From Leptospirillia bacterium (GTDB lineage Bacteria; Nitrospirota; JACRHL01), in the NCBI GenBank assembly GCA_046754085.1, contig JBHHVE010000001.1:71821-135820 (forward strand): DNA of 64,000 bases, in the 5' to 3' direction. Positions within the stretch are counted from its first letter, which is position 1; every line of letters begins with the position of its first letter. This document shows, piece by piece, positions 11,446-54,700 of the stretch. A model generated the notes under the pieces. It did no database searches and had not been told where the DNA came from. It worked only from the letters and a program-made list of their open reading frames with translations. Position numbers and translations under genes: made by a program.

Positions 11446-11711
11446 AGACAGTGCGCTTTCATACGCGACGGGTTGCAGTGCCTTACATGCTCAGCCGCTT
11501 TCTCGCAGTGGCTTACGGGACCCGGAAGCGAGAACGGATAAAATGGTGACGGGGCAGTGTAGCCGAAGCAAGGTGTTCATGCGAAACCGGCCCCGGCCCG
11601 GAAGCCTTCCGGACGGGAGAAGCTGTTACCCTTGTATGGGAATAAAAAGCGGGGCAACGGCGCCCTGCGGTGTCGGAGCGATTGTTCCGGGGGGAGCCTG
11701 AAGAGGGTTTG

Positions 11712-12377
11712 ATGGATATTAAGCTGAGTGATGCGGAGGCCCGGGTGCTTGGCTGTCTGATCGAGAAGGAGGTCACCACGCCGGATTACTATCCGATGAC
11801 CCTGAACGCACTTACCAACGCGTGCAATCAGAAGTCGAACAGAAACCCGGTGGTGGCTTACGAACAGACCACGGTGGTGCGGGCTCTCGACCGGCTACAG
11901 ACGGCAAGGCTGACAGTGACCACCCACCAGGCGGGCAGCCACACCCCCAAGTACCGGCATGTGATCACCGATCGGATTCCCTTGGCCCCGGCCGAACTTG
12001 CCGTCCTGTGTGAGCTGCTTCTGCGGGGTCCGCAGACCGTTGGTGAGTTACGGGGGCGTGCCGCCCGCATGCACGACCTGGGGGACCTTGCCGCCACCCA
12101 GGTGGTGCTCGATGGCCTGATGGAACGGCAGCCGCCGCTGCTGACGGAATTGCCGCGCCAGCCGGGCCGCAAGGAGTGCCGCTACGCCCACCTGTTGTGC
12201 GGCGAGGTGGATGTGTCTGCGATTGTCTCCGCGGCGGGTCCGTCGCCGGAGGCGGCCACCGTTCAGGTGCGCGCCGAGGATGAGCGCATCGCCCGCCTGG
12301 AGACCCAGGTGGCGACCCTCTCCAACGAATTGGCGGCGCTGAAAAAAAACCTGGAAAATTTCATGTCCCAGTTTTGA
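11712..12377 (+). CDS. yceH: YceH-family protein (DUF480/UPF0502)
   Basis: From the internal ATG at 11712 the sequence MDIKLSDAEARVLGCLIEKEVTTPDYYPMTLNALTNACNQKSNRNPVV closely resembles the E. coli YceH N-terminus. A GAAGAGGG SD-like sequence precedes it. The listed ORF begins at an upstream GTG (11670). Confidence 0.8.
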   Translation: MDIKLSDAEARVLGCLIEKEVTTPDYYPMTLNALTNACNQKSNRNPVVAYEQTTVVRALDRLQTARLTVTTHQAGSHTPKYRHVITDRIPLAPAELAVLCELLLRGPQTVGELRGRAARMHDLGDLAATQVVLDGLMERQPPLLTELPRQPGRKECRYAHLLCGEVDVSAIVSAAGPSPEAATVQVRAEDERIARLETQVATLSNELAALKKNLENFMSQF

Positions 12378-12390
12378 GGCAGTGGGGTGA

Positions 12391-12747
12391 ATGGATGAAC
12401 TGACCGATGCCCAGATGGCCGAACTGACCGCCACCCTGCATCAGTTGGAACAGGAGTTGCTGGCGGTGCTGGCCGATACCGACACGGATGCCCGTCCGGT
12501 GGATCTGGGGCTGCCCATCGGCCGCCTGTCGCGCATGGATGCGATGCAGCAACAGAGTATGGCCAAGGCCGGTCGCGCGGCTTATCAGCAGCGGCTGGCG
12601 GGTGTGCAAAGGGCCCTGTCCACGGTGGCCGACGGCGAGTACGGATACTGTAGGAGTTGTGCCGAACCGATCGGCTATGGACGTCTGTCTGCCCGCCCCG
12701 AGGCCCCCCTTTGTGTTGCCTGCCAGGAGCTTTTGGAAACCAACTGA
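12391..12747 (+). CDS. DksA/TraR-family C4 zinc-finger protein
   Basis: 118 aa. Coiled-coil N-terminus, then the CRSCAEPIGYGRLSARPEAPLCVAC C4 zinc finger characteristic of DksA/TraR. Confidence 0.8.
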   Translation: MDELTDAQMAELTATLHQLEQELLAVLADTDTDARPVDLGLPIGRLSRMDAMQQQSMAKAGRAAYQQRLAGVQRALSTVADGEYGYCRSCAEPIGYGRLSARPEAPLCVACQELLETN

Positions 12748-12933
12748 CATGCGTTCCCACCGCTGTGGCGGCTGTGCGGGGAGCATGGCTAAATGAATTC
12801 CCCCTTTCCCTTGTCGTTTTGCTTCATTGGGGCTATAACTCGTTACCAACGGGGGGCACAGGGGAACTGAGCCGACCGGATTCGGGCATGCGGCAAATGC
12901 ATGGTCGATGGAGCCAATGGGGAGGGACAGGGC

Positions 12934-14172
12934 ATGGCGGGGCGAGTTCTGGGTGTGTGGTTGCTGTTTGCGGCAGGGCTGTTTTTCGCGCAGCCCGCGG
13001 TAGCCAGGGACTGCGTAGGCTGCCACGAGGCACTCCACCCCGGCATCATCGCCGACTGGAAGGCCAGCCTGCACGCCCAGGTGGGCATCAAGTGTTCCGC
13101 CTGCCACGGCAAGGACCACCGCACCGAAAAAGATGTTGCCGAGGTCAAGCATCCGACCCCCGAGGTGTGCGCCCGCTGCCACCCGGACCGGGCGGAGGAG
13201 TTCAAGCTTGGCAAGCATGCCATCGCCTGGACCGCTATGAAGGCCATGCCCACCACCCATTGGAAGCCCATGGAGATGATCGAGGGGCAGAAGGGGTGCG
13301 GCGGCTGCCACAAAATCGGGGTGAAGTCGGATGCCGAACTGGCCCAGATCAGGGAAGAGGGCAGCGCCGGCGGTGCCTCCTGCGACTCCTGCCACACCCG
13401 CCACCTGTTTTCCCGCAAGGAGGCGCGCCAGCCTCAGGCCTGCCAGACCTGCCATATGGGATTCGATCATCCCCAGTGGGAGATGTATTCCACCTCCAAG
13501 CACGGCGTGCGCTACCTGCTCAAGCAGAACGGCACCCTGCCGGAACACGTTTCCGCCCCCACCTGCCAGACCTGTCATATGGACGAGGGCAATCACGAGG
13601 TTCGCGCTCCGTGGGGTTTTCTGGCGGTGCGCCTGCCGTTGCCGGAGGACCCCCAGTGGCGGGCCGACCAGATCACCCTCCTGCAGGGGTTGGGGGTGCT
13701 TGACCCCGAGGGCAACCCCACCGAGCGGCTGGACGTGGTCAAGGCCGCCGACGTGGCGCGTCTGACCCAGGAGTCGTTCGATGAGGAGCGCAACAGGATG
13801 ATTGCCGTGTGCGCCCGCTGCCACACCGAGCGCTTTGCCAAAAACGAGATGGACAAGGGCGACAAGGTGATCCGCGCCGCCGACCATCTGGTGGCCGAGG
13901 CGATCCGTATCGTGGCTGCGCTCTACAAGGACGGCGTGCTCGCCAAGCCGGAAAGCTACGCCTACCCGTTTCCGGACCTGCTCAGTTTCCACGATGCGCC
14001 GACGCCGATCGAGCACCGCCTGTTCGTGATGTTCCTGAAACACCGTATGCGTACCTTCCAGGGGGCGTTCCACAACAACCCGGATTACACCCTGTGGTAC
14101 GGCTGGAGCGAGCTTCAGACCGATCTGATCGAGATTCGTCACCTGGGCGAGGCACTGCGCAAGGGGGGATAG
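12934..14172 (+). CDS. Octaheme c-type cytochrome, hydroxylamine-oxidoreductase (HAO)/octaheme-nitrite-reductase-like family, paralogue 1
   Basis: Eight CxxCH motifs: CVGCH, CSACH, CARCH, CGGCH, CDSCH, CQTCH, CQTCH, CARCH. A signal peptide follows the ATG at 12934, which has a GGAGGG SD 7 nt upstream. The conserved block CQTCHMGFDHPQWEMYSTSKHG is shared with the paralogue at 15064. The listed ORF starts 33 nt earlier. Confidence 0.75.
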   Translation: MAGRVLGVWLLFAAGLFFAQPAVARDCVGCHEALHPGIIADWKASLHAQVGIKCSACHGKDHRTEKDVAEVKHPTPEVCARCHPDRAEEFKLGKHAIAWTAMKAMPTTHWKPMEMIEGQKGCGGCHKIGVKSDAELAQIREEGSAGGASCDSCHTRHLFSRKEARQPQACQTCHMGFDHPQWEMYSTSKHGVRYLLKQNGTLPEHVSAPTCQTCHMDEGNHEVRAPWGFLAVRLPLPEDPQWRADQITLLQGLGVLDPEGNPTERLDVVKAADVARLTQESFDEERNRMIAVCARCHTERFAKNEMDKGDKVIRAADHLVAEAIRIVAALYKDGVLAKPESYAYPFPDLLSFHDAPTPIEHRLFVMFLKHRMRTFQGAFHNNPDYTLWYGWSELQTDLIEIRHLGEALRKGG

Positions 14173-14180
14173 GATTACCC

Positions 14181-14774
14181 GTGTGGGCACTGACCCTATC
14201 CGTTCTTGCGGCGATGGACGTCCTGTTGATCATCGCCATTCTGTACGGCTGGGTGGCGAAAGGGGCGGGCCGCCGCAAGTTGCTGGCGTTTCTCGTGCTC
14301 GGGGTGTTTCCGCTGTTGTGGGGCACCGCGGCCTTCTCCTACAACTTCAACCGCATCAAGGATGTGGAATTCTGCGCCACCTGCCACGCCATGCAGGATC
14401 ATGTGAGGAGCCTTCAGGCCGATAGCGAGGAGCCCTTGTCGGCGTTGCATTATCAGAACAATTTCGTGCCCCAGGAGACCGCCTGCTACTTCTGCCACAC
14501 CGGTTACACCTGGTTCGGGCCGCTCAAGGGTAAATTCAACGGCATCCGCCACATTTACGTGGCGTACATTCAGGGGGTGCCGGACAAGCTGAGCATTTAT
14601 GAGCCATATCAAAACAGGGACTGCCTGCAGTGCCACGGCAAGTCCAAGCGCTTCAGGTCCCAGCCGGTGCACAACAGAAGGGCCGACATGATGGACAACC
14701 TGCAAAACGGCACTTTCTCGTGCCTGACCGAGGGCTGTCACGACCTGGCCCATCTCCTGCCGGAGGACTGGTAG
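14181..14774 (+). CDS. NrfH/NapC/NirT-family membrane-anchored tetraheme cytochrome c (quinol dehydrogenase)
   Basis: GTG at 14181 directly after the HAO-like stop, preceded by AAGGGGGG. N-terminal TM helix (WALTLSVLAAMDVLLIIAILYGW). Heme motifs are CATCHAM (the CxxCHxM signature of NrfH heme 1), CYFCH, CLQCH and the non-canonical CLTEGCH. The listed ORF 13809-14774 includes an upstream antisense-overlap extension. Confidence 0.75.
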   Translation: MWALTLSVLAAMDVLLIIAILYGWVAKGAGRRKLLAFLVLGVFPLLWGTAAFSYNFNRIKDVEFCATCHAMQDHVRSLQADSEEPLSALHYQNNFVPQETACYFCHTGYTWFGPLKGKFNGIRHIYVAYIQGVPDKLSIYEPYQNRDCLQCHGKSKRFRSQPVHNRRADMMDNLQNGTFSCLTEGCHDLAHLLPEDW

Positions 14775-14981
14775 GTGGTTAACGATCTGACCCCCCAATT
14801 CAAGGTGGCCCTGGTCTGCAACATTCTGGGGACGGTGATGCTGGGCGCGTCCATGTTCGCCGACCATCCCCTGTTTTTTATGATCATTGTGATGCTGGGG
14901 GTGGGGCTGCTGCTGACCGGTTTCGCCATCTGGGTGTGGATGGTGCTGGGCGAGGCCCACGGCAAGGGGTTGTTCCGGTAG
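14775..14981 (+). CDS. Small hypothetical membrane protein, two predicted TM helices
   Basis: 68 aa. GTG start immediately after the nrfH-like stop. Two hydrophobic segments: FKVALVCNILGTVMLGASMFA and FFMIIVMLGVGLLLTGFAIWVWMVL. It is sandwiched between nrfH-like and the second hao-like gene. Confidence 0.35.
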   Translation: MVNDLTPQFKVALVCNILGTVMLGASMFADHPLFFMIIVMLGVGLLLTGFAIWVWMVLGEAHGKGLFR

Positions 14982-15063
14982 CGGAGCATGATGCCATGAG
15001 TACCCGGACGATCTGTTTCAGGCTTTTTTGACTTTGATTTGAATTGTAAGTGAAGGATCACAA

Positions 15064-16587
15064 GTGAACATTCAATTGAACGGCCAAGATGGCGGCACGG
15101 TGCAGACCCTTCTGACGGGCGCCGCCCTGACGCTGGCCTTTTTGCTGACCCTGTTGGCGCTGCCGGCCCTGTCGGGAGCGGCGGCTCCGGTGCGCCTGGC
15201 CGAGCTTTCCGTGGAGTCGCAAAACTGCGTGAACTGCCACAAGCAGGACAACGTCAACGTCTACCAGCAGTGGGGCAAGAGCAAGCACTACGGCGCCAAC
15301 ATCGGCTGCTATGAGTGCCACCAGGCCGACAAAAACGACCCGGACGCCTTCAAGCACAGGAAGGGACCGTGGATTTCCACCGTCGTGACCCCCAAGGATT
15401 GCGCCCGTTGCCACGAGAAGGAGGCCCGGGAGTTCGCCGAGAGCCACCACTCCAAGGCGGGCCGCATTTTAGGCTCCCTGGATAACATCCTGGCCGAGGT
15501 GGTGGAGGGCAACCGCGGCTTTGTCACCACCGGCTTTCCGGACGGCGTCTCGGCCGCCGCCGCCAACGGTTGCTGGCAGTGCCACGGCAGCGAGGTCAAG
15601 GTGCTCAAGGATGACAAGGGCAACAATACCGGCAGGCTCGATCCCGCCACCTGGCCCAACAGCGGCATTGGCCGTATCAACCCGGACGGCAGCGAGGGCA
15701 GTTGTTCCGCCTGTCATCAGCGCCACGATTTCTCCCGTGCCCAGGCGCGTCAGCCGGAAAACTGCGGCAAGTGTCACATGGGGCCGGACCATCCGCAGAT
15801 CGAGGTCTACAACGAGTCCAAGCACGGCATCAATTACCACGCCAACAAGGACGAAATGAACCTGGACTCCACCAAGTGGGTGGTGGGCGAGGACTACTTC
15901 GCGGCCCCCACCTGCGCCACCTGTCACATGTCCGCCACCCGGGACATGCCGGTGACCCATAACGTCGGGCTGCGCATCAAGTGGAACAACCGCCCGGTGC
16001 ATTCCAAGCTGGCGCATCTGACTGACAAGAAATGGGGCCTGCCGTCCGCCAGCGTAACCGGTGATGAACGTCGGACCAACATGGAAAACGTGTGCCTGGC
16101 GTGCCATGCCAAACCCTTCACCGATAATTTCTTCACCCAGTATGAGGCGCTGATCGAGCTGTACGACAGCAAGTTCGCAACCCCCGGAGAGGCGCTCTAC
16201 AAGGCCGCCACCGCGGTGCTCAAAAAGGCCGAGGGGGAACGCTACGCCAAGTTCAGTCACAAGATTGACTACACCTGGTTCGAACTGTGGCACCACGAGG
16301 GGCGTCGCGCCCGGCACGCCGCTTCGATGCAGGCGCCGGACTACACCCACTGGCACGGCACCTATGATCTGGCGAAGAATTTCTACTCGGAATACATTCC
16401 CGAGATCAGGGAGATCATCCACGACAATCAGGAAGGCCCGGCAGCCAAGGAGGCGCTGGTGCTTGAGGCCCTGCTGGAAGAGGTGCTGGCGAGCCCGAAC
16501 CATCAGTGGTTCATCGGCGAGGTGTCGGACGAGGAACAGAAGGCCCGCGACAACCGGCGCAAGGAGTTCCTCGAGCGCTACCAGTAG
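15064..16587 (+). CDS. Octaheme c-type cytochrome, HAO/ONR-like family, paralogue 2
   Basis: 507 aa with a signal peptide (TLLTGAALTLAFLLTLLALPALSGAAA). Eight CxxCH motifs: CVNCH, CYECH, CARCH, CWQCH, CSACH, CGKCH, CATCH, CLACH. The CGKCHMGPDHPQIEVYNESKHG block is conserved with paralogue 1. A GAAGGA SD lies upstream. Confidence 0.8.
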   Translation: MNIQLNGQDGGTVQTLLTGAALTLAFLLTLLALPALSGAAAPVRLAELSVESQNCVNCHKQDNVNVYQQWGKSKHYGANIGCYECHQADKNDPDAFKHRKGPWISTVVTPKDCARCHEKEAREFAESHHSKAGRILGSLDNILAEVVEGNRGFVTTGFPDGVSAAAANGCWQCHGSEVKVLKDDKGNNTGRLDPATWPNSGIGRINPDGSEGSCSACHQRHDFSRAQARQPENCGKCHMGPDHPQIEVYNESKHGINYHANKDEMNLDSTKWVVGEDYFAAPTCATCHMSATRDMPVTHNVGLRIKWNNRPVHSKLAHLTDKKWGLPSASVTGDERRTNMENVCLACHAKPFTDNFFTQYEALIELYDSKFATPGEALYKAATAVLKKAEGERYAKFSHKIDYTWFELWHHEGRRARHAASMQAPDYTHWHGTYDLAKNFYSEYIPEIREIIHDNQEGPAAKEALVLEALLEEVLASPNHQWFIGEVSDEEQKARDNRRKEFLERYQ

Positions 16588-16606
16588 CGCCGCGCCGGGC
16601 AGGATC

Positions 16607-16642
16607 AAAAAAGCCCCGGACCAGGCGGTCCGGGGCTTTTTT
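16607..16642. terminator. Bidirectional Rho-independent terminator between hao-like paralogue 2 (+) and sulP (-)
   Basis: AAAAAAGCCCCGGACC-AGGC-GGTCCGGGGCTTTTTTATT: an 11-bp GC-rich stem with a 4-nt loop, flanked by an A-tract on one side and a T-tract on the other. It sits 20 nt after the hao stop at 16587 and ahead of the sulP stop at 16690. Confidence 0.7.
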
Positions 16643-16689
16643 ATTGTTTACGGAATCCAGGGTGCCATTTCGTGAGGGCCGCCGCCCAC

Positions 16690-18228
16690 TCAGGCCAGTT
16701 TGTCGGTGGCCACGAAATAGCTCGGGTCTTCCTGGATGTTCACCTCCACCAGGTCGCCGGCCTTTTCCAGAAGCTGACGGCACTCGGCGCTCAGGTGGCG
16801 CAGGTGGAGGTTCTTGCCGGCGCGTTTGTAGCGTTCGGCCAGGGTGTCGATGGCCTCGATGGCGGAGTGGTCCAGCACCCGTGAGTTGCGAAACTCCACA
16901 ATCACCTTGTCCGGGTCCGCCGCGGGGTGAAACAGCCGGTGAAACTGGTGGATGGAGCCGAAAAACAGCGGCCCGGACAGATCGTACACCTTGGCGCCGT
17001 CCGCGTCCTCGCTGATGGAGACGCCAATCTGCTTGGCGTGTTCCCAGGCGAAGATCAGGGCCGAGGCGATCACCCCCACCAGCACCGCGACCGCAAGGTC
17101 GGTGGCCACGGTGACGCCGGTCACCAGCACGGCGACGAACAGGTCGCCCTGGGGCACCTTGCCGAACAGCCGCAGGGAGGCCCACTCGAAGGTGCCCAGA
17201 ACGACGATGAACATCACCCCCACCAGGGCCGCGATGGGAATCATCTCGATCAGCGGCGAGGCGAACAGAATAAAGCACAAAAGCGCGAGGGCGGCGGTGA
17301 CGCCCGAGGCCCGGCCGAGACCGCCGGAGTGGATGTTGATCATGCTCTGGCCGATCATGGCGCAGCCGCCCATGCCGCCGAACAGGCCGGTGGCGGTGTT
17401 GGCGACCCCCTGGGCCACACACTCCCGGTTGCCCCGTCCACGAGTCTCGGTGATTTCGTCGATCACCCGCATGGTCAGCAGGGACTCGATCAGTCCGATG
17501 GCGGCGAAGATGATCGAATAGGGCAGGATGATCCACAGGGTTTCCAGGGTCATCGGCACCGTGGGGATGTGAAACACGGGCAGGCCGCCGCCGATGGAGG
17601 CCACATCGCCCACCGTGCGGGTATCAAGGCCGAACCCCACCACCAGCAGGGTGAGGGCGACGATGGCCACCAGAGACGACGGCACCTGCCGGGTCAGCCG
17701 GGGGAGGAAGTGGATAATCGCCATGGTCAGCGCCACCAGCCCGAGCATGGTGAGCAGTGGTTCCGTCGCCAACCATTCGCGGCCACCGTCCGCGGTGTGG
17801 ATCTGGAACTGGCTGAGCTGGGCCAGGAAGATGACGATGGCCAGGCCGTTTACGAACCCCAGCATCACCGGGTAGGGCACGATGCGCATGAACTTGCCGA
17901 GCTTCAAAACCCCGGCGCTGATCTGGATGATGCCCATCAGCACCACGGCGGCGAACAGGTACTGGGCGCCATGTTCGGCCACCAGCGCCACCATCACCAC
18001 CGCCAGCGCCCCGGTGGCGCCGGAGATCATGCCGGGGCGGCCACCGATGACGGCGGTGATCAGCCCCACCATGAAGGCGGCGTAAAGTCCGGACAGAGGG
18101 TGGACTCCGGCCACAAAGGCAAACGCCACCGCCTCCGGCACCAGGGCCAGGGCCACGGTCAGGCCTGACAGGATATCGGAGCGCAGGCGGGCGAAGTGGG
18201 TGTGGTAGATATCAAACACGAAAAACAA
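16690..18228 (-). CDS. SulP-family inorganic anion transporter with C-terminal STAS domain
   Basis: 512 aa. The N-terminus LSGLTVALALVPEAVAFAFVAGV is the SulP signature region. Multiple TM segments, then a C-terminal STAS-like domain (KVYDLSGPLFFGS...). Confidence 0.9.
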   Translation of the reverse strand: MFFVFDIYHTHFARLRSDILSGLTVALALVPEAVAFAFVAGVHPLSGLYAAFMVGLITAVIGGRPGMISGATGALAVVMVALVAEHGAQYLFAAVVLMGIIQISAGVLKLGKFMRIVPYPVMLGFVNGLAIVIFLAQLSQFQIHTADGGREWLATEPLLTMLGLVALTMAIIHFLPRLTRQVPSSLVAIVALTLLVVGFGLDTRTVGDVASIGGGLPVFHIPTVPMTLETLWIILPYSIIFAAIGLIESLLTMRVIDEITETRGRGNRECVAQGVANTATGLFGGMGGCAMIGQSMINIHSGGLGRASGVTAALALLCFILFASPLIEMIPIAALVGVMFIVVLGTFEWASLRLFGKVPQGDLFVAVLVTGVTVATDLAVAVLVGVIASALIFAWEHAKQIGVSISEDADGAKVYDLSGPLFFGSIHQFHRLFHPAADPDKVIVEFRNSRVLDHSAIEAIDTLAERYKRAGKNLHLRHLSAECRQLLEKAGDLVEVNIQEDPSYFVATDKLA

Positions 18229-18643
18229 TCCAGGTTAAATGTCGCGTATTCCGGCGTCACACGGACGCAGCCGCACCGAACCGTGGGTGGCAAATCCGCC
18301 GCTCATGCCCAAACCTGTAAGGGAAGTCAGGTATCGCCGCCGCTCCGCCGGACCCGTTGCCGGATACCGCTCTGGAGGGCCTTATTCTAAGGCGGGGCAA
18401 GACCTTGCACAACGGGTCCGGCGGCATTATCGGGCGGTTCGGGGGGCTTGGTGTGGTGGATCATGCCGCCGTAGCCCGGTGCATCCTTCACCATCACGGT
18501 ATTTTCACCCACCGGCTAGACATCCGCGCTTTTCCGTGCCCCCATTCCGCCAACCCTGGCGTTTATGGGTCCGCACGCTAGAATTAAAGTAGAGTTCTCC
18601 GTGCGTTGAGCGCGGCGGGCCGATCGGGAAGGAGGTGGGCGCC

Positions 18644-20893
18644 ATGGCGCGTTTCGGCTGGCTTCCGTGGAAGTTCGTGGTGCGGCGTATTGCCCGTGCC
18701 CACGGCTTTCTGGACCCGATTTCCATCCTCTCCCACCTGCGCCGGTTTACCCAGCCTTCGGAGGTCGCGGAACCGGTGGAGTTGTTGCGCGCCGGAGTGG
18801 TGTTGCATGCCCGCGGGCTGATCAACAGCCGGGTCATCCAGCACAATCTGGACTGGGTCTGGCCCTACTGGGTGGAGCGGCAGTTCGACCCGGAGGGCAA
18901 CGCCTTCGTACCGCGCGCCTTCTCCATCACCCACATCAACCTGACCCATCGCAACTGGACCGCCGTGGGATTGCCGGACGTGGATGCGCTGCCGATCGTG
19001 GATCCGCGCGGTCTGATCACCCCCCATCTGGACGACTGGTCCCTGGACGCCTGGGTGGTGGCCGACGACGGCCGCATACTGCTGCCGTCCCGCGCGGAAC
19101 ACGCCACCCAGCGGCTGGAGATGGATGACGATACGGTGCGGGTGGTGACCGAAACCCGGCTGGACGACCTGTTTCTCAGCGTGGTGGCTCAGGTCAATGA
19201 CGAGGACGGTGCACCGGCGCTTTCCATGGGGGTGAATGCCCGCGCCGCCGGTCCCGCCTGGGTGGTGATCTCCCTCAGGCCCTACAACCCGGAGGGAGTG
19301 CAGTTCATCCACCGGGCCGGGCTTTCGGACGACCGCACGCGCTGGCGGGTGGACGGTGAAACCGCCGTCGATTTCAGCGAACCGGTGGAGCGCCACGTGG
19401 CGTCGTCTTATGCCCACGGTGACGTGCACGCCCGCCTGCATGACCTTTCGGATCGGCACGATCACGGATGCGACGTCGGCATGCTGACTGCGGCGGCCCT
19501 GTTCCGGGTGGAGGCGGGCACCCCACGGCAGGTGACCGCCAGGGTGCCGCTCAGGCTGGAAGATGGCGGTGCGCCCCACGCCGTGCCGTGGGCGCGGGCG
19601 CTGTCCGGCGCCTGCCAGTTGGACGTGCCGGATGCCCGCTTCCAGTTTTTGTATGACGCCGCCCTACGCAGCCTGATTCTGCATTCCCCAGGCGACGTCT
19701 ATCCCGGACCCTACACCTACAAACGCTTCTGGTTCCGGGACGCCGCCTTTATGGTCCATGCCCTGCTGTGCGCCGGGCTGACCGGGCGGGCCGAACGCGC
19801 TCTCGACCGCTTCGCCCCGCGGCAGAAGCGCGACGGCTACTTCCACTCCCAGGACGGCGAGTGGGATTCCAACGGCGAGGCGCTGTGGATCATGGAGCGC
19901 TTCTGCCGCATGACCGGCGCCCCGCCCAAGGCGGCGTGGCGCACCCCCATTCGCCGGGGCGCCGCATGGATCATGGGCAAGCGCCTGCCGGAAGACAGCA
20001 GCGGAACCGCCGGGCTTTTGCCCGCCGGGTTTTCCGCCGAACACCTGGGGCCGAACGACTTTTACTACTGGGACGATTTCTGGGGCGTGGCGGGACTTGC
20101 CGCCGCCGCCCGCATGCATGACGCACTGGGGGATGTGAGCGGTGCTGCGCGCTGGCGGGACGGCGCCGAGGCCCTCTCCGGTTCCATCGATCGCAGTCTG
20201 GCGCGGGCGGCGGAAAGGCTGGGGCGCCCGGCCATGCCGGCGGCGCCCGGTCGCCGCCTCGACGCCGGCGCCATCGGCTCGATCGCGGCGGGTTACCCGC
20301 TACAGCTTTTCCCGGCGGACGATGCGCGCCTGCTGGACCTTGCGGACTACCTGCTGGACGACTGTTTCGTCCGGGGCGGATTTTTCCAGGACATGATCCA
20401 TTCGGGTATCAACCCCTATCTCACCCTGCACATCGCCCAGGTGCTGCTGCGGGCGGGGGACCCCCGTTATCTCGACCTCGTGGAGCGCATGGCGGAGATG
20501 GCCAGCCCCACCGGCCAGTGGCCGGAGGCGATCCACCCGCGCACCGGCGGCGGCTGCATGGGCGACGGCCAGCATGTGTGGGCGGCGGCGGAGTGGCTGA
20601 TCATGGTGCGCAACCTGTTTGTGCGGGAGGAGGACGATGCCCTGATCATTGCCTCCGGCGTACCGCCCCGCTGGCTGGAGGCGGGCGAACCCTTGTGGTT
20701 CGGTCCGGCCCCCACCCTGTTTGGCCCCGTCACGGTCAGCATTGAACGCCATGACAGCGGCGCGCGGGTTGTCTGGCAGGGGGCGTGGCACGGCGCCGCG
20801 CCCCGGGTGGAAATACGCCTGCCGGGGTGTGTCCCGGTGGTTGCGGATCCCGATGCGCGGGAGGCGTTGCTGGAACGGGAGACGGTTACGTGA
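18644..20893 (+). CDS. Glycoside hydrolase family 15-like (glucoamylase/trehalase-type, (alpha/alpha)6 barrel) protein
   Basis: About 750 aa. The GGAAGGAGG SD sits 8 nt upstream of the ATG at 18644; the listed ORF starts at GTG 18635. The C-terminal half has GH15-like six-hairpin motifs: FYYWDDFWG, FFQDMIHSGINPYLT, GQWPEAIHPRTGGG. The family call comes from motif resemblance only. Confidence 0.55.
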   Translation: MARFGWLPWKFVVRRIARAHGFLDPISILSHLRRFTQPSEVAEPVELLRAGVVLHARGLINSRVIQHNLDWVWPYWVERQFDPEGNAFVPRAFSITHINLTHRNWTAVGLPDVDALPIVDPRGLITPHLDDWSLDAWVVADDGRILLPSRAEHATQRLEMDDDTVRVVTETRLDDLFLSVVAQVNDEDGAPALSMGVNARAAGPAWVVISLRPYNPEGVQFIHRAGLSDDRTRWRVDGETAVDFSEPVERHVASSYAHGDVHARLHDLSDRHDHGCDVGMLTAAALFRVEAGTPRQVTARVPLRLEDGGAPHAVPWARALSGACQLDVPDARFQFLYDAALRSLILHSPGDVYPGPYTYKRFWFRDAAFMVHALLCAGLTGRAERALDRFAPRQKRDGYFHSQDGEWDSNGEALWIMERFCRMTGAPPKAAWRTPIRRGAAWIMGKRLPEDSSGTAGLLPAGFSAEHLGPNDFYYWDDFWGVAGLAAAARMHDALGDVSGAARWRDGAEALSGSIDRSLARAAERLGRPAMPAAPGRRLDAGAIGSIAAGYPLQLFPADDARLLDLADYLLDDCFVRGGFFQDMIHSGINPYLTLHIAQVLLRAGDPRYLDLVERMAEMASPTGQWPEAIHPRTGGGCMGDGQHVWAAAEWLIMVRNLFVREEDDALIIASGVPPRWLEAGEPLWFGPAPTLFGPVTVSIERHDSGARVVWQGAWHGAAPRVEIRLPGCVPVVADPDAREALLERETVT

Positions 20894-22197
20894 ACATCCT
20901 CATGGTCACCAATACCTACGCCCCCCACGTGGGGGGCGTGGCGCGCTCGGTTGCGGGTTTTGCCACGGCCTACCGCGCCCGCGGCCACCGGGTGCTGGTG
21001 GTGGCGCCGGTGTTTGAGAACGCCGACGACGCGGAAGATGAGGTCATTCGGGTGCCGGCCCTGCAGAAGGTCAACGGAAGCGATTTTTCCGTGGTGCTGC
21101 CGGTACCCGGTTATCTGGATGCCGCCGTGGGCCGCTTCGCCCCTGATGTGGTGCATGCCCACCATCCGTTCCTGCTGGGAGGCACCGCCATGCGGCTGGC
21201 CCACGGCGGGGGCATCCCGCTGGTGTTCACCCACCACACCATGTACGAGCGCTACACCCATTATGTGCCGGGGGACTGCTCCGCCCTGAAGCGTTTCGTC
21301 ATTCACCTCTCCACCAACTACGCCAACCTGTGCGAGATGGTGTTCGCTCCCAGCGAGAGCATTCGGGACGTACTGCAGGGGCGTGGTGTGCATGTGCCGA
21401 TCCGGGTGGTGCCGACCGGGGTCGATACGGAACGCTTCGGTCAGGGAGACGGTACGGCGTTCCGGCACCGCCTGGGTATTCCGCAGGATGCCTTTGTGGT
21501 GGGGCATGTGGGACGTCTGGCGCCGGAGAAAAACCTGGCGTTTCTGGCCCGCGCCGTATGCCGTTTCCAGACCGGACCCGAGGAGGGTCACACCCAATTT
21601 CTGGTGGCGGGGGAGGGACCGTCGGAGGCGGCCATCCGGCAGGTTGCCGAGGACTTCGGGGTGTCCGGCCGCCTGCATCGGATCGGGGTGCTGAGTCCCC
21701 GGGAACTTGCGGATGCCTACCACGCCATGGACGTATTCGCCTTTGCGTCGGAGAGCGAAACCCAGGGCATGGTACTTACCGAGGCGATGGCCGCCGGTGT
21801 TCCGGTGGTGGCGCTGGACGCCTCCGGGGTGCGCGAGGTGGTGCGGGATGGCGTCAATGGCTATCTGCTGGAACACTCCGACGAAGGTGGTTTTGCCGAT
21901 GCCCTGAACCGGTTCGAACACCTGAATCCGGCGGATCGTGTGGCATTTAAGGATGCTGCCCGTGGTACCGCCGACGCCTTTTCCATGGCCCATTCGGCTA
22001 CCGCCGCCCTGAGCCATTACAGGCACCTTGAATGTCGCCCCGAGCCTGAGCGGCGGGATACGTCCGCAGCCTGGGAGAAGACCGTGCGGCGGATCCGCAC
22101 CGAGTGGGAGATGGTACGGGGGGTCGCCGCCGCCGCCGAGGCGGCCCTGACATCCCGGGAGGAACACGGGAGCGAGGATCATGTTCGCCCGGGTTGA
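20890..22197 (+). CDS. Glycosyltransferase family 4 (GT-B, retaining)
   Basis: The GTG at 20890 overlaps the upstream stop and yields MNILMVTNTYAPHVGGVARSV, a typical GT4 N-terminus. The C-terminal E-x7-E nucleotide-sugar motif is present (FAFASESETQGMVLTEAMAAGVPVVA). The listed ORF starts further upstream at 20785, inside the previous gene. Confidence 0.8.
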   Translation: MNILMVTNTYAPHVGGVARSVAGFATAYRARGHRVLVVAPVFENADDAEDEVIRVPALQKVNGSDFSVVLPVPGYLDAAVGRFAPDVVHAHHPFLLGGTAMRLAHGGGIPLVFTHHTMYERYTHYVPGDCSALKRFVIHLSTNYANLCEMVFAPSESIRDVLQGRGVHVPIRVVPTGVDTERFGQGDGTAFRHRLGIPQDAFVVGHVGRLAPEKNLAFLARAVCRFQTGPEEGHTQFLVAGEGPSEAAIRQVAEDFGVSGRLHRIGVLSPRELADAYHAMDVFAFASESETQGMVLTEAMAAGVPVVALDASGVREVVRDGVNGYLLEHSDEGGFADALNRFEHLNPADRVAFKDAARGTADAFSMAHSATAALSHYRHLECRPEPERRDTSAAWEKTVRRIRTEWEMVRGVAAAAEAALTSREEHGSEDHVRPG

Positions 22198-51761: not shown

Positions 51762-54700
51762 ATGGCTCAGGCCCAGAACGAACAACATAGCCACGGGTCC
51801 GCAAGACGCCTGGGCAGGGCTTTTGCTCTGCTCCTGCTGTTCTGCGGCGGTGTCTTTGCCGGATGGCAGGCCATTCAGGAAGGCACCCGTGCCGCCGACC
51901 CCGTCACCGTCCAGGGGCCGTCCTATCAGGCCCGGTTCGACGGTTCCGGCCTCTCCATGCACATGGAGCGCGGCCGCAAGTATCGCCTCGACATCGGTAC
52001 CGAGCGGGTGACCACCGGCGAATACACCCTTTTCGACGCAAAACTGGGCGGTGCCCTCTGGGAGATGGAGCCGCATCTGACGTTTGACTCCCTGACCGAC
52101 GTCACCAGCTTTTCCCGTAAATCCTCCAGCGCCGCCCGCTACCGCCTGGCGAAAGGCCTGAGTCAGCGTTTCATCGCCCGTGACTTTGGTGTCGAACAGA
52201 TCTGGGAGGTCGAAAAAATACCCTCCGGCGGCGATCTGACCATCACCAACCGCATCGTCACCCCCTTGACCGCCCGCACCGAAGCCGGCGGTGTGGTGCG
52301 TTTCTATACCGCCGATGGTCACTACGTTACCTCCTACGGTCAGGCCACCATCACCGACCGTGCCGGACGCCGCCTGCTGGTGGATTCCAAGCTGGCCGCC
52401 GTGGACGCCGATGCGGCCGATGCATCCGGTGGGTCGGGCGAGCCCGGTGACAACCATTATCTGATCGCCCTGAACCTGCCGGAAGAGTGGCTTGCGACTG
52501 CCGAATACCCGGTCATCATCGATCCGCTCATCGGGGTCGAGATTCCGGTGGCGTCCATTCCCGGTACCCTGGAGCACGATCCGGAGATTGCCGTTGGCGG
52601 CACCGAGCACCTGGTGGTGTTTACCGAGCAGGTGGGCGCCCTGGGGGCGGTACACGGCATCCGTCTGACCATCAACGGCGCGGTGCAGCTTCCCGAGATT
52701 ACCATCAGCGGCGCCGGTGACGCCCACTCCCCCGACGTGGCTTTCGATGGCACCGACTGGTTCGTAACGTGGGTGGAGGACGACGACATCATGGGCGCGT
52801 TCGTGGACGCCACCGGTGTGGTGAGCGGCACCGTTGCGCTCACCGCCGACGGCGCCACCCTCATCGATGCGGTGCCCAAGGTGGCCTACAATGTCACCAA
52901 TAACCAGTTCCTGGTGGTGTGGGAACGCGACATCAACATCTCGGCCGCCTTCGTGAACGGCACCACCGGTCTGCCCGGTGCGGTGTTCAATATCTCCGCC
53001 ACCACGGCCACCGAGACCAACCCGAGCTTGTCGTTCATCCCCCAGAAGGGGCAGGGTAATGACACCGTTGACTACTTCATGGTGGGCTGGGTGGCAGACA
53101 ACAACGTCTACGCCACCCGGGTGGATGGCACCGGCACCGTGGATCCGGTGGCCCTCACCATCATGGACGGCGGCATCACCGGGGCCACCCTGGCCACTTC
53201 GGTGGCGGTGGGCAGCGACCCCACCGACTGGGCGGCCAACTTCATCATCATCTGGACCGACGACCGCAACGCCGCGGGCGATGAGGATGTGTGGGCGGTG
53301 CGGGTGACCAAGGAAGCCACCCTCATGGACGTGACCGACATTTCGGTGTCGGCGGCGCCCGGCAGTGAAACCGAGGTGGACGCCCTGCTGGTGGGGGGCT
53401 CCACCTACTTCATCACCTGGACCCACCGGGCCCGCGCCTCCCAACCGGATATCTTTGCCTCCCGCCTGCTGTTCGGCAGCGGTCTGGTGATGGATCCGGG
53501 CGGCATCGAGGTGGCCATCACCGGCAGCGCCCAGACCCAGCCCGCCATCTCCTGGGACGGCACCAACTACATGGTGGTGTGGAGCGACGACCGGGATACC
53601 GGTTTCTCCGACGTCTATGCCCAGCGCATTCCCAACGTTTTCCCGGAAGCGCCCACGGCGCTCGTTGCCGCCGATACCCCTGGCGACCTGGGCGGCAGTG
53701 TGGACCTGTCCTGGAGCCCCTCGGCGAGCGCCGGCGTGACCCAGCAACGCATCTACCGGGAAACCGCCGCCGACGGTCAGTTCACCAACCTGATCCAGAC
53801 CATCACCGGCAACGCCACCAACACCTACACCGACACCGACCCGGCCCTGGTGGACGACACCACCTATTACTATGTGGTGCGCGCCTTCGACGGCACCTAC
53901 GAGAGTGGCGACTCGCTGATGGCCTCCGCCGCGCCTCACGACAACATTACGGTCAACGCCTTCTTCAGCAGCATCTCCCAGGCGGTTTCCGAGGGTGGCC
54001 CTCCGGGAACCACCAACGCGACCGCCCGGGTGCAACTCACCAACCTGTCCGGCACGGACGTGACGGTGCCGTTTACGGTGGATGTCCTGTCCACCGCCAC
54101 CCTCGGTACCGACTACACCATCAGCCCGGCCTCACCGCTCACCATCACGGCGGGACAGGCATTTGCCGACATCACCGTCACCCTTACCGGCGACACCGAC
54201 TTCGAGCCGGATGAGACCGTGGTGATTAATCTGGGCACGCCCACCGGTGCGGGTTTGGGCACCCCCACCAGCCACACGGTAAACATCACCAACGACGATA
54301 TACAGCCCTCCGTCACCTTCGCCCTCGGCGCCCAGAACAGCAACGAGGGGTTGGCGGCGACGGTCCCGGTGACACTGAATCTTTCCGCACTCTCGGCCTG
54401 GGATGTGACGGTGCCGTACACCATCGGCGCCGCTTCCACCGCCAGCGGCGCCGGCGTGGATTACTCCCTGGCCCCGGCGGGTCAGGTGGTGATTTCCGCC
54501 GGTCAGATTTCCGCCGATCTTTCCGTGACAGTGGTGAACGACCTGCTGCACGAGACCGCCAGTGAGACGGTGATTGTGGACATGGACACTGTGGGTCTGG
54601 TGAACGCCACCGCCGGCGCCACGGTGCAGCACACCCTGAACATCGTGGACGACGATACCGAACCGGTGGTGACCTTCGCACTCGGCGCATCGAGTATTTC

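What the first reader, a model, noticed from the sequence alone, without database searches (positions are those of the whole stretch)
12934..16587. hao-like / nrfH-like / small-TM / hao-like: a quinol-oxidising octaheme cytochrome module with duplicated catalytic subunits
Two paralogous octaheme c-type cytochromes (8 CxxCH each, 412 aa and 507 aa, both with signal peptides and the shared block C-x-(T/K)-CHMG-x-DHPQ-x-E-x-Y-x-x-SKHG) flank a membrane-anchored tetraheme cytochrome. That cytochrome carries the CxxCHxM signature of NrfH heme 1. The arrangement resembles the epsilon-proteobacterial reverse-HAO (eHao) plus NapC/NrfH-type partner, or an NrfHA complex in which octaheme subunits replace pentaheme NrfA. 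This predicts a menaquinol-dependent reductase for nitrite, hydroxylamine or another N- or S-oxyanion. Two divergent catalytic subunits sharing one quinol dehydrogenase, with a 68-aa two-TM ORF inserted between them, is not a described operon layout. A convergent SulP anion transporter and an upstream DksA/TraR gene complete the neighbourhood. A possible internal promoter (TTGACT at ~15029) precedes paralogue 2.
Basis: partly seen in the sequence, partly recalled or inferred. Interest (0 to 1): 0.8.

Follow-up and report, generated by a model that had tools for sequence, protein, structure and literature searches.

The report
Quinol-linked double octahaem reductase operon
A four-gene operon in an uncultured Leptospirillia (Nitrospirota) bacterium pairs a membrane quinol-oxidising cytochrome and its small partner protein with two different hydroxylamine-oxidoreductase-like octahaem enzymes of the reductive type; it is a new variant of a known design for reducing nitrite-type compounds, not a new kind of system.

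Summary
Window 12934-16587 (+) encodes four genes. Hao1 is 412 aa with 8 CxxCH. A NapC/NirT-family tetrahaem cytochrome of 197 aa follows, then a 68-aa two-helix membrane protein, then Hao2 (507 aa, 8 CxxCH). One strong terminator closes the unit. My gene calls match NCBI's (MFQ5507773-776, MAG Leptospirillia bacterium).

Both octahaems are HAO-family proteins with the distal Asp-His pair. In the best alignment neither carries the cross-link tyrosine that marks oxidative HAOs: Hao1 has Leu387 and Hao2 has His429. They share only 27% identity and belong to two old, widespread clades, so they are not a recent duplication. Hao2 is IhOCC-like. Hao1 belongs to a compact, uncharacterised clade.

The "NrfH-like" protein is a divergent superfamily member. 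It has CxxCHxM, a conserved CX4CH fourth haem site and two predicted N-terminal helices. It scores far below the NrfH and NapC equivalog cut-offs. The small gene nearly always follows it.

The same four genes occur in other Nitrospirota MAGs in a different order. Other loci hold hao1 alone, hao2 plus a monohaem cytochrome c, or a monohaem cytochrome c alone next to the pair.

Best reading: a reverse-HURM-type quinol-dependent reductase for nitrite, NO or hydroxylamine. Substrate and direction of electron flow are inferred, not shown. DksA, SulP and the internal promoter are not supported as parts.

The parts
12811..12839 (+). Promoter-like site TTGTCG-17 nt-TATAAC, about 95 nt upstream of hao1. 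Weak inference.
   Evidence: Read directly from the sequence. It is not reported by the consensus scan, whose rule requires T at position 6 of the -10 element.
12934..14172 (+). hao1: a compact 412-aa HAO-family octahaem cytochrome c. It has a signal-like N-terminus, 8 CxxCH, distal Asp178-His179, and Leu387 in the cross-link Tyr column.
   Evidence: PF13447 8e-28. PDB best hit 6h5l/kustc0458, 7e-30; with a family profile, 6e-42. Motif positions. Family invariants. Cross-link column. Foldseek top 9 hits are all HAO family, although the model is poor.
14181..14774 (+). Divergent NapC/NirT(NrfH)-superfamily tetrahaem cytochrome, 197 aa. Two N-terminal membrane helices. Haem sites are CATCH+Met71, CYFCH, CLQCH and C-LTEG-CH (CX4CH). 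Putative quinol dehydrogenase.
   Evidence: PF03264 6e-12. Below the NCBIfam NrfH and NapC equivalog cut-offs. All four haem sites are invariant in relatives. Helices 2-21 and 29-59 have pLDDT of about 80.
14775..14981 (+). 68-aa two-helix membrane protein with an invariant His31-Pro32 loop. Its start abuts the stop of the cytochrome gene. Presumed small subunit of the quinol dehydrogenase.
   Evidence: No Pfam or NCBIfam family. Conserved in six related loci. A similar gene follows the NrfH-like gene in 17 of 24 loci with enough downstream DNA. dN/dS is 0.26-0.38 for close pairs.
15064..16587 (+). hao2: a 507-aa HAO-family octahaem cytochrome c of the IhOCC/epsilon-Hao-like type. It has 8 CxxCH, distal Asp242-His243, His429 in the cross-link column, and Arg310 at the position of NeHAO Tyr334. 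Its own RBS (AAGGA) follows an 82-nt spacer.
   Evidence: PF13447 8e-27. PDB best hit 4qo5 IhOCC, 2e-46; with a family profile, 5e-62. Family invariants. Cross-link column.
16607..16642 (.). Strong intrinsic terminator (16-bp stem, T and A runs on both sides). It closes the operon and also serves the convergent SulP gene.
   Evidence: Terminator scan. Sub-threshold Rfam leader and sRNA hits at this spot are terminator look-alikes.

Best explanation
This is one transcription unit, hao1-cytochrome-small-hao2, that encodes a periplasm-facing respiratory or detoxifying reductase system of the 'reverse HURM' type.

The proposed mechanism is as follows. The two-helix NapC/NirT-superfamily tetrahaem cytochrome and its 68-aa two-helix partner oxidise menaquinol in the membrane. 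They pass electrons through four c-haems to two different soluble HAO-family octahaem enzymes. In each enzyme, seven haems wire electrons to haem 4, whose distal pocket keeps the HAO Asp-His pair. Neither enzyme has the tyrosine that cross-links haem 4 into P460, so both are predicted to run reductively. The most likely substrates are nitrite, NO and/or hydroxylamine. The two old paralogues probably differ in substrate or product.

Shown here: gene content, family membership, motif and pocket conservation, tight gene spacing, and recurrence of the gene set.

Inferred: quinol oxidation, physical docking, direction of electron flow and the substrate.
For: Family and pocket. PF13447 matches both octahaems. 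Only HAO-family structures match significantly. NeHAO D267/H268 align with the invariant D178/H179 of Hao1 and D242/H243 of Hao2.

No cross-link Tyr. In a 69-sequence MAFFT alignment anchored on haem 8, NeHAO Y467 and KsHOX 'QTY' fall on Hao1 L387 and Hao2 H429; kustc0458 has W and IhOCC has T at that column. This agrees with PMC12758564, which reports that reductive HAOs mostly carry His at the key site.

Characterised Tyr-less relatives are reductases. Kustc0458 reduces nitrite to NO, and epsilon-Haos reduce nitrite and hydroxylamine (PMC8042395). The Hao plus NapC/NrfH/cM552 'reverse HURM' scheme is described in PMC2628731.

Operon structure. The gene gaps are 8, 0 and 82 nt, followed by a single terminator.

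Recurrence. hao2-hao1-nrfH-small occurs in L006, L007 and L011. hao1-nrfH-small occurs in L045 and L015. hao2-cyt c-nrfH-small occurs in L012. Each octahaem is therefore found on its own beside the membrane module.

Nitrosative-stress context. A Calditrichia Hao1 homologue sits beside an Rrf2 regulator and hemerythrin/DUF438/DUF1858 genes.
Against: No nitrate or nitrite reductase, transporter or hcp gene lies in the 64-kb window.

Outside this small Nitrospirota group, Hao1- and Hao2-family genes are usually solitary (L001-L005, L008-L010, L049-L051). The close NrfH-like family is tiny: 11 clusters against thousands for the octahaems. The partnership is therefore lineage-specific.

The same membrane pair also sits next to monohaem cytochrome c, Mto-like, Cyc2-like and Rieske/cytochrome b genes. 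In such systems electrons may flow into the quinone pool instead.

The functions of HAO clades outside clade III and the Campylobacterota are unproven (PMC9213671).

The cross-link column rests on an alignment that is ambiguous by 1-2 residues. One HMMER alignment places the KsHOX Tyr on Hao1 Y389.

The AF2 models are poor, with pLDDT of 64 and 57.
Confidence: 0.6

Rival explanations
1. The architecture is the same, but the substrate is a sulfur compound (sulfite, tetrathionate, polysulfide) or another oxyanion rather than an N-oxide. This would apply to one or both octahaems.
For: Speth et al. (PMC9213671) note that HAO-family clades I and II outside the Campylobacterota have no known function, occur in 65 phyla mostly without N-cycling, and may reduce sulfur species. 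Related multihaem folds (MccA, OTR) act on sulfur compounds. No N-cycle gene lies in the window. A SulP-type anion transporter is convergent.
Against: SulP is not conserved next to the cluster in any relative. The invariant Asp-His distal pair is the HAO N-oxide pocket. Every characterised Tyr-less HAO acts on nitrite, NO or hydroxylamine. A Hao1 homologue neighbours an Rrf2 regulator and hemerythrin-type genes.
Confidence: 0.15
2. Only one octahaem is the true client of the membrane module, most likely Hao1. Hao2 is an independent enzyme whose gene merely landed next to it and draws electrons from another donor.
For: The closest Hao2 relatives (75-80% identity) are solitary genes next to the same 750-aa and GT4 neighbours (L001-L005). 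hao1-nrfH-small stands without hao2 in L045. hao2's position relative to the core differs between the window and L006, L007 and L011. An 82-nt spacer with its own RBS precedes hao2.
Against: hao2 adjoins the module in 5 related loci. One of them, L012, has no hao1. No terminator and no convincing promoter separate the small gene from hao2.
Confidence: 0.15
3. The module runs oxidatively, as a true HURM. An octahaem oxidises hydroxylamine or another reduced compound and delivers electrons through the membrane cytochrome into the quinone pool. This could involve Hao1 forming a Tyr389-haem cross-link.
For: Distant relatives of the NrfH-like/small pair sit with Mto-like, Cyc2-like and monohaem cytochrome c genes typical of electron uptake. 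HMMER aligns the cross-link Tyr of KsHOX and BfHOX with the invariant Hao1 Y389. Some representatives related to Hao1 carry Tyr in the cross-link column.
Against: The MAFFT alignment and the HMMER alignment to NeHAO put Leu387 in the cross-link column, not a Tyr. In NeHAO and KsHOX the Tyr lies 8 residues after a conserved His; in Hao1 that position is W388. Hao2 has His there, the typical reductive state. No amo-type or c554 gene is present.
Confidence: 0.07

Closest known systems
Reverse HURM / epsilon-Hao system of Campylobacterota (Nautilia, Campylobacter, Caminibacter): Tyr-less Hao plus a NapC/NrfH/cM552-type tetrahaem quinol dehydrogenase
   Same: It has a periplasmic HAO-family octahaem without the cross-link Tyr, combined with a membrane-anchored tetrahaem cytochrome of the NapC/NirT superfamily. 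The predicted route is quinol to N-oxide (PMC2628731; PMC8042395).
   Different: Two octahaems from different clades replace the single one. The membrane cytochrome has two helices and a CX4CH fourth site, and is accompanied by a conserved 68-aa membrane protein. In Nautilia the hao and cM552-like genes carry distant locus numbers (GAmH_1248 and GAmH_0536). I could not compare directly with a Campylobacterota epsilon-Hao sequence.
IhOCC, the octahaem cytochrome c of Ignicoccus hospitalis (PDB 4qo5)
   Same: It is the best solved relative of Hao2 (2e-46; with a family profile, 5e-62). It has the same haem order and no cross-link Tyr. The literature lists it as an octahaem nitrite reductase in the HAO clade (PMC9250108).
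   Different: IhOCC has Asp-Val where Hao2 keeps Asp-His (CHLDPDVP versus CHMGPDHP). It is archaeal. It shows no equivalent membrane partner in this analysis.
Kustc0458/0457 (HAOr) of Kuenenia stuttgartiensis (PDB 6h5l)
   Same: It is the best solved relative of Hao1 (7e-30; with a family profile, 6e-42). It aligns without gaps through the C-terminal cross-link region and lacks the Tyr. It is a reductive HAO that makes NO from nitrite.
   Different: Identity is only about 24-30%. Hao1 is about 100 residues shorter. The partner there is a soluble dihaem cytochrome, not a membrane NapC-type protein.
NrfHA nitrite reductase complex (Desulfovibrio, Wolinella)
   Same: The membrane cytochrome has the CxxCHxM first-haem signature, has four haems, and is predicted to pass electrons from menaquinol to a periplasmic multihaem reductase.
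   Different: There is no NrfA (no CxxCK protein). The NrfH equivalog score is 39 bits against a cut-off of 134. The fourth site is CX4CH, there are two N-terminal helices, and there is an extra small subunit.
CymA / ImoA-type NapC/NirT quinol oxidoreductases of extracellular electron-transfer pathways (Shewanella, Sideroxydans Mto cluster)
   Same: The roughly 40%-identity relatives of the NrfH-like/small pair sit in decahaem + MtrB/PioB porin + monohaem cytochrome c clusters. This gene order mirrors mtoA-mtoB-mtoD-imoA. It shows the pair behaves as a portable membrane hub.
   Different: ImoA is reported to cluster close to NapC and NirT sequences. A small partner and a CX4CH site are not mentioned in the text I could read. 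In the window the clients are HAO-family enzymes, not porin-cytochromes.

Membership tests
HAO family (PF13447, octahaem hydroxylamine-oxidoreductase-like) | Profile match above the curated cut-off | tested here: met
   Hao1 scores 97.8 bits and Hao2 94.6 bits against a cut-off of 21.9.
HAO family (PF13447, octahaem hydroxylamine-oxidoreductase-like) | Eight CxxCH sites, with solved relatives restricted to HAO, HOX, HDH, HAOr and IhOCC | tested here: met
   Each protein has 8 CxxCH and no other Cys. All PDB hits at or below 1e-13 are HAO-family; NrfA and ONR score only 0.02-0.03. The Foldseek top 9 are all HAO-family, although the model is low-confidence.
HAO family (PF13447, octahaem hydroxylamine-oxidoreductase-like) | Distal Asp-His pair at the catalytic haem (NeHAO D267/H268) | tested here: met
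   The aligned residues are D178/H179 (Hao1) and D242/H243 (Hao2). They are invariant in 24 and 23 family members.
Oxidative HAO/HOX/HDH (P460 enzymes) | Tyrosine that cross-links to haem 4 of the neighbouring subunit (NeHAO Y467) | tested here: not met
   The cross-link column holds L387 in Hao1 and H429 in Hao2 (MAFFT, 69 sequences; HMMER versus NeHAO). Caveat: HMMER versus KsHOX puts the Tyr on Hao1 Y389, so the column is uncertain by 1-2 residues.
Epsilon-Hao / reverse-HURM type reductive Hao | Tyr-less Hao associated with a NapC/NrfH/cM552-type membrane cytochrome | tested here: met
   Both genes lie in one operon with a PF03264 protein. The association recurs in L006, L007, L011, L012 and L045.
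Epsilon-Hao / reverse-HURM type reductive Hao | Nitrite and hydroxylamine reductase activity; sequence clustering with Campylobacterota epsilon-Hao | not testable with these tools
No Campylobacterota epsilon-Hao sequence was available to align. Only the IhOCC relationship was measured.
NrfH (TIGR03153 equivalog) | Equivalog score above the cut-off | tested here: not met
   39.2 bits against a cut-off of 134.2. NapC/NirT TIGR02161 scores 28.3 against 310.6.
NrfH (TIGR03153 equivalog) | CxxCHxM first haem site | tested here: met
   C65-ATC-H69-A-M71 is invariant in 7 and in 11 relatives, and is present in most 40%-identity relatives.
NrfH (TIGR03153 equivalog) | Four CxxCH sites, one N-terminal helix and an NrfA (CxxCK) partner | tested here: not met
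   There are three CxxCH plus a CX4CH. Two helices are predicted. None of the four operon proteins contains a CxxCK motif. The rest of the window was screened only for CxxCH counts; only the two hao genes have any CxxCH motifs.
NapC/NirT superfamily (PF03264) | Profile match above the curated cut-off over the whole domain | tested here: met
   46.1 bits against a cut-off of 24.1, covering residues 33-195 and profile positions 7-173 of 174.
NrfA / octahaem nitrite reductase (TvNiR type) | CxxCK catalytic haem site and significant sequence similarity | tested here: not met
   Neither octahaem has CxxCK. TvNiR and NrfA chains match only at E of 0.02-0.03, over an N-terminal stretch.
AOB-type HURM (HAO-c554-cM552) | Soluble tetrahaem c554 between HAO and the membrane cytochrome | tested here: not met
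   No separate c554-like gene is present. The PF13435 hits lie inside the octahaems. No other multihaem ORF exists in the window.

The most novel reading that the evidence does not exclude
The NapC/NirT-like cytochrome (CxxCHxM plus CX4CH, two helices) and its 65-75-aa His-Pro-loop partner form a previously undescribed, portable two-subunit quinol:cytochrome c oxidoreductase. Different lineages plug it into HAO-family reductases, Mto/Cyc2-type iron-oxidation conduits or Rieske/cytochrome b complexes. In this Leptospirillia lineage it serves two HAO clades of unknown function that divide a multi-step N-oxide reduction between them, for example nitrite to NO or hydroxylamine by one and on to ammonium by the other.
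Probability: 0.25. Interest if true: 0.6.

Novelty: new variant of a known kind. Interest (0 to 1): 0.4.

Why it matters
HAO-family octahaems without the cross-link tyrosine are among the most abundant "nitrogen-cycle" genes in anoxic metagenomes (PMC8940962). Yet outside the Campylobacterota and anammox bacteria their function and electron donors are unknown (PMC9213671).

This operon physically links members of two such clades to a candidate quinol dehydrogenase. That gives a concrete, expressible four-protein system for testing what these clades reduce and how they are wired to the membrane.

The side observation may matter more broadly for electron-transport annotation. A conserved cytochrome/small-protein pair is reused with HAO-type, monohaem, Mto-like, Cyc2-like and Rieske/cytochrome b partners.

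Tried and rejected
- Exact look-ups of Hao2 and of P0001 found no contig on record.
- Sequence search of the NrfH-like profile against the PDB returned only chance nanobody hits.
- The AF2 models of Hao1 (pLDDT 64, haem core below 50) and of the NrfH-like protein (pLDDT 57) were too poor for residue-level conclusions. I did not run a fold search on the second model.
- I could not obtain Dietl 2019, Haase 2017 or Maalcke 2014 to read the published cross-link alignments.
- An HMMER-only placement of the cross-link Tyr gave contradictory columns: L387 with NeHAO, Y389 with KsHOX. I resolved this with a 69-sequence alignment and the literature statement that reductive forms have His there.
- Rejected as parts of the system: DksA/TraR, DUF480 and SulP, because they are absent from every related locus.
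- Rejected: the internal promoter at about 15029, because it has no -10 element.
- Rejected: an MtrA/OmcA or c554 identity, because the PF22113 and PF13435 hits are secondary partial matches inside HAO-family proteins.
- Rfam found only sub-threshold terminator look-alikes.
- Literature searches for Leptospirillia plus hydroxylamine, and for NapC NirT plus CX4CH, returned nothing.

Full report
**What is there**

Between 12934 and 16587 on the + strand lie four tightly packed genes:
- hao1, 12934-14172, 412 aa.
- A NapC/NirT-like cytochrome, 14181-14774, 197 aa, with a GTG start 8 nt after the hao1 stop.
- A 68-aa ORF, 14775-14981, whose GTG directly abuts the previous stop.
- hao2, 15064-16587, 507 aa, after an 82-nt spacer with an AAGGA ribosome-binding site.

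A 16-bp-stem intrinsic terminator at 16607-16642 follows. It is shared with the convergent SulP gene. These four products are exactly the ones NCBI's pipeline called for this MAG: MFQ5507773-776, 'Leptospirillia bacterium', contig 143,744 bp.

Each large protein has exactly eight CxxCH sites, no other cysteine, and a hydrophobic signal-like N-terminus.

There is one correction. The middle cytochrome has three CxxCH plus C181-LTEG-C186-H187 (CX4CH), and it has two N-terminal hydrophobic helices.

**Family of the octahaems**

Both match PF13447 far above the cut-off. Against all solved structures, the only significant relatives are HAO-family proteins.
- Hao1 is closest to kustc0458/HAOr (7e-30), then Brocadia and Kuenenia HOX, then N. 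europaea HAO.
- Hao2 is closest to Ignicoccus IhOCC (2e-46), with the rest at or weaker than 1e-20.

Family profiles sharpen this to 6e-42 and 5e-62. NrfA and TvNiR match only at E of about 0.02. A low-confidence AF2 model of Hao1 (pLDDT 64) still retrieves only HAO-family chains as its top nine Foldseek hits.

The two proteins share only 27% identity with each other. Each belongs to its own very large family:
- Thousands of database clusters lie at 63-80% identity to Hao2, in Nitrospirota, Nitrospinae, Marinimicrobia, Calditrichota and Fibrobacteria.
- Thousands lie at 65-76% identity to Hao1, in Aminicenantes, KSB1, Calditrichia and Acidobacteriota.

They are ancient paralogues brought together, not a local duplication.

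**Active site and the cross-link question**

The distal Asp-His of N. europaea HAO (D267/H268) aligns with D178/H179 of Hao1 and D242/H243 of Hao2. These residues are invariant in 24 and 23 family members. NeHAO Tyr334 aligns with the invariant Arg310 of Hao2.

The tyrosine that cross-links haem 4 in oxidative HAOs needed care, because both proteins contain an invariant 'PDY' and Hao1 also contains 'WYGW'.
- HMMER placed NeHAO Y467 on Hao1 L387.
- HMMER placed the KsHOX Tyr on Hao1 Y389.

To settle this I collected 50%-identity representatives related to Hao1. I aligned the region from haem 8 to the C-terminus for 69 proteins, including the PDB fragments. In that alignment NeHAO 'WTY' and KsHOX 'QTY' share one column. 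The column reads Leu387 in Hao1 ('DYTLW'), His429 in Hao2 ('DYTHW'), Trp in kustc0458 and Thr in IhOCC.

This fits a 2025 evolutionary study, which states that reductive HAOs typically have His at the key site (PMC12758564). It also fits the finding that mat-derived hao genes uniformly lack the Tyr (PMC8940962).

I therefore score the cross-link as absent in both. About 10% doubt remains for Hao1, because the column is uncertain by one or two residues. By the family rule established experimentally for kustc0458 and the epsilon-Haos (PMC8042395), both are predicted reductases.

**The membrane partner**

The 197-aa protein matches PF03264 over the whole domain. It is far below the NCBIfam cut-offs for NrfH (39 against 134 bits) and NapC/NirT (28 against 311). 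CxxCHxM, the two central CxxCH and the CX4CH are invariant in all close relatives. They persist in a roughly 40%-identity clade from soil and peat metagenomes.

The 68-aa protein has no family. It is conserved at 44-74% identity, with two hydrophobic helices and an invariant His-Pro in the connecting loop. dN/dS is 0.26-0.38 for the closer pairs; distant pairs are saturated. A gene of this kind follows the cytochrome gene in 17 of 24 loci with enough downstream sequence. Its start often overlaps or abuts the cytochrome stop codon. The cytochrome and the small protein are best seen as one two-gene membrane module.

**Context in relatives**

The close cytochrome family is tiny, at 11 clusters. 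The gene arrangements around it are:
- hao2-hao1-cyt-small in L006, L007 and L011.
- hao1-cyt-small in L045 and in the partial L015.
- hao2-monohaem cyt c-cyt-small in L012.
- Monohaem cyt c-cyt-small in L013 and L014/L047.

The window's order, hao1-cyt-small-hao2, is one more permutation.

Outside this Nitrospirota group, both octahaem families are usually solitary genes. The closest Hao2 relatives sit alone next to the same 750-aa and GT4 genes that lie at 18635-22197 in the window.

The 40%-identity relatives of the membrane pair sit with other partners:
- A decahaem, an MtrB/PioB porin and a monohaem cytochrome c (L028, L033).
- A Cyc2-like porin-cytochrome (L026).
- A Rieske protein and a cytochrome b/c fusion (L036).

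The pair therefore behaves as a portable membrane electron hub. DksA/TraR, DUF480 and SulP are not found in any related locus, so they are not part of the system. No other haem or N-cycle gene lies in the window.

**Mechanism**

The best-supported reading is a reverse-HURM-type system (PMC2628731). Quinol is oxidised by the membrane pair. Electrons pass through four haems to periplasmic Tyr-less HAO-family enzymes, which reduce nitrite, NO or hydroxylamine at haem 4.

Each octahaem is found alone next to the module in some genome (L045, L012). This argues that both can be clients. Their age and divergence suggest different substrates or products.

Direction of flow, docking and substrate are inferences. 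Three rivals remain:
- A sulfur-compound substrate, as proposed for other uncharacterised HAO clades.
- Hao2 is only a neighbour, not a client.
- The module runs oxidatively.

**Promoters**

The proposed internal TTGACT (15028-15033) has no usable -10 element at 16-18 nt, and the scan does not report it. A better candidate, TTGTCG-17-TATAAC at 12811-12839, lies upstream of hao1. I read it by eye, so it is weak evidence.

**Verdict**

It is a new variant of a known kind, not a new kind. The variation consists of two HAO clades on one divergent NapC/NirT-type module that has a dedicated small subunit and a CX4CH site. I found no description of this combination or of the small subunit in the searchable literature, but that search was limited.

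Noticed in passing
window 51762-63998 (+), running off the window end: A single stop-free frame of at least 4079 aa, i.e. a giant repeat or surface-type protein. It coincides with the reversal of GC skew after about 52 kb. Giant Ig-like surface proteins also lie a few kb from the hao cluster in L006 and L045.
   Followed up: partly
L028 500-5200; L033 18-3369; L026 5968-8738; L036 1225-4528: Relatives of the NrfH-like/small pair at about 40% identity, from soil and peat metagenomes, sit with other partners: a decahaem + MtrB/PioB porin + monohaem cytochrome c (Mto-like), a Cyc2-like porin-cytochrome, or a Rieske protein + cytochrome b/c fusion. This suggests a portable quinone-pool hub that has not been described with its small subunit.
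   Followed up: partly
P0256, P0267, P0274, P0279, P0367, P0387 (representatives related to Hao1): These compact HAO-family proteins carry a Tyr in the cross-link column ('SYW'/'AYW'). They may be P460-type enzymes outside nitrifiers and anammox bacteria. This may correspond to the separate His-to-Tyr transition reported in Desulfobacterota (PMC12758564).
   Followed up: no
L010 7526-12236 (Calditrichia MAG GCA_054681835.1): A Hao1-family gene lies directly after an Rrf2-type regulator. It is followed by a Fer4_5 polyferredoxin, a DUF438/hemerythrin/PAS_10 protein and a DUF1858/DUF2249 protein. This neighbourhood is typical of NO and nitrosative-stress responses.
   Followed up: partly
window 18635-22197 versus L001-L005: The 752-aa protein without any family and the GT4 glycosyltransferase are syntenic with solitary hao2 in the closest relatives. 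This suggests hao2 was the ancestral resident here and the hao1-cyt-small block was joined to it.
   Followed up: partly
window 16584-16748: Sub-threshold Rfam hits to the Thr, His and Leu leaders and to small RNAs all fall on the bidirectional terminator between hao2 and SulP. They are terminator look-alikes, not leaders.
   Followed up: yes
window 11670-12747: A DUF480 (YceH-like) gene and a DksA/TraR zinc-finger gene sit 14 nt apart, immediately upstream of the operon. This pair is not found next to the hao cluster in any relative.
   Followed up: partly
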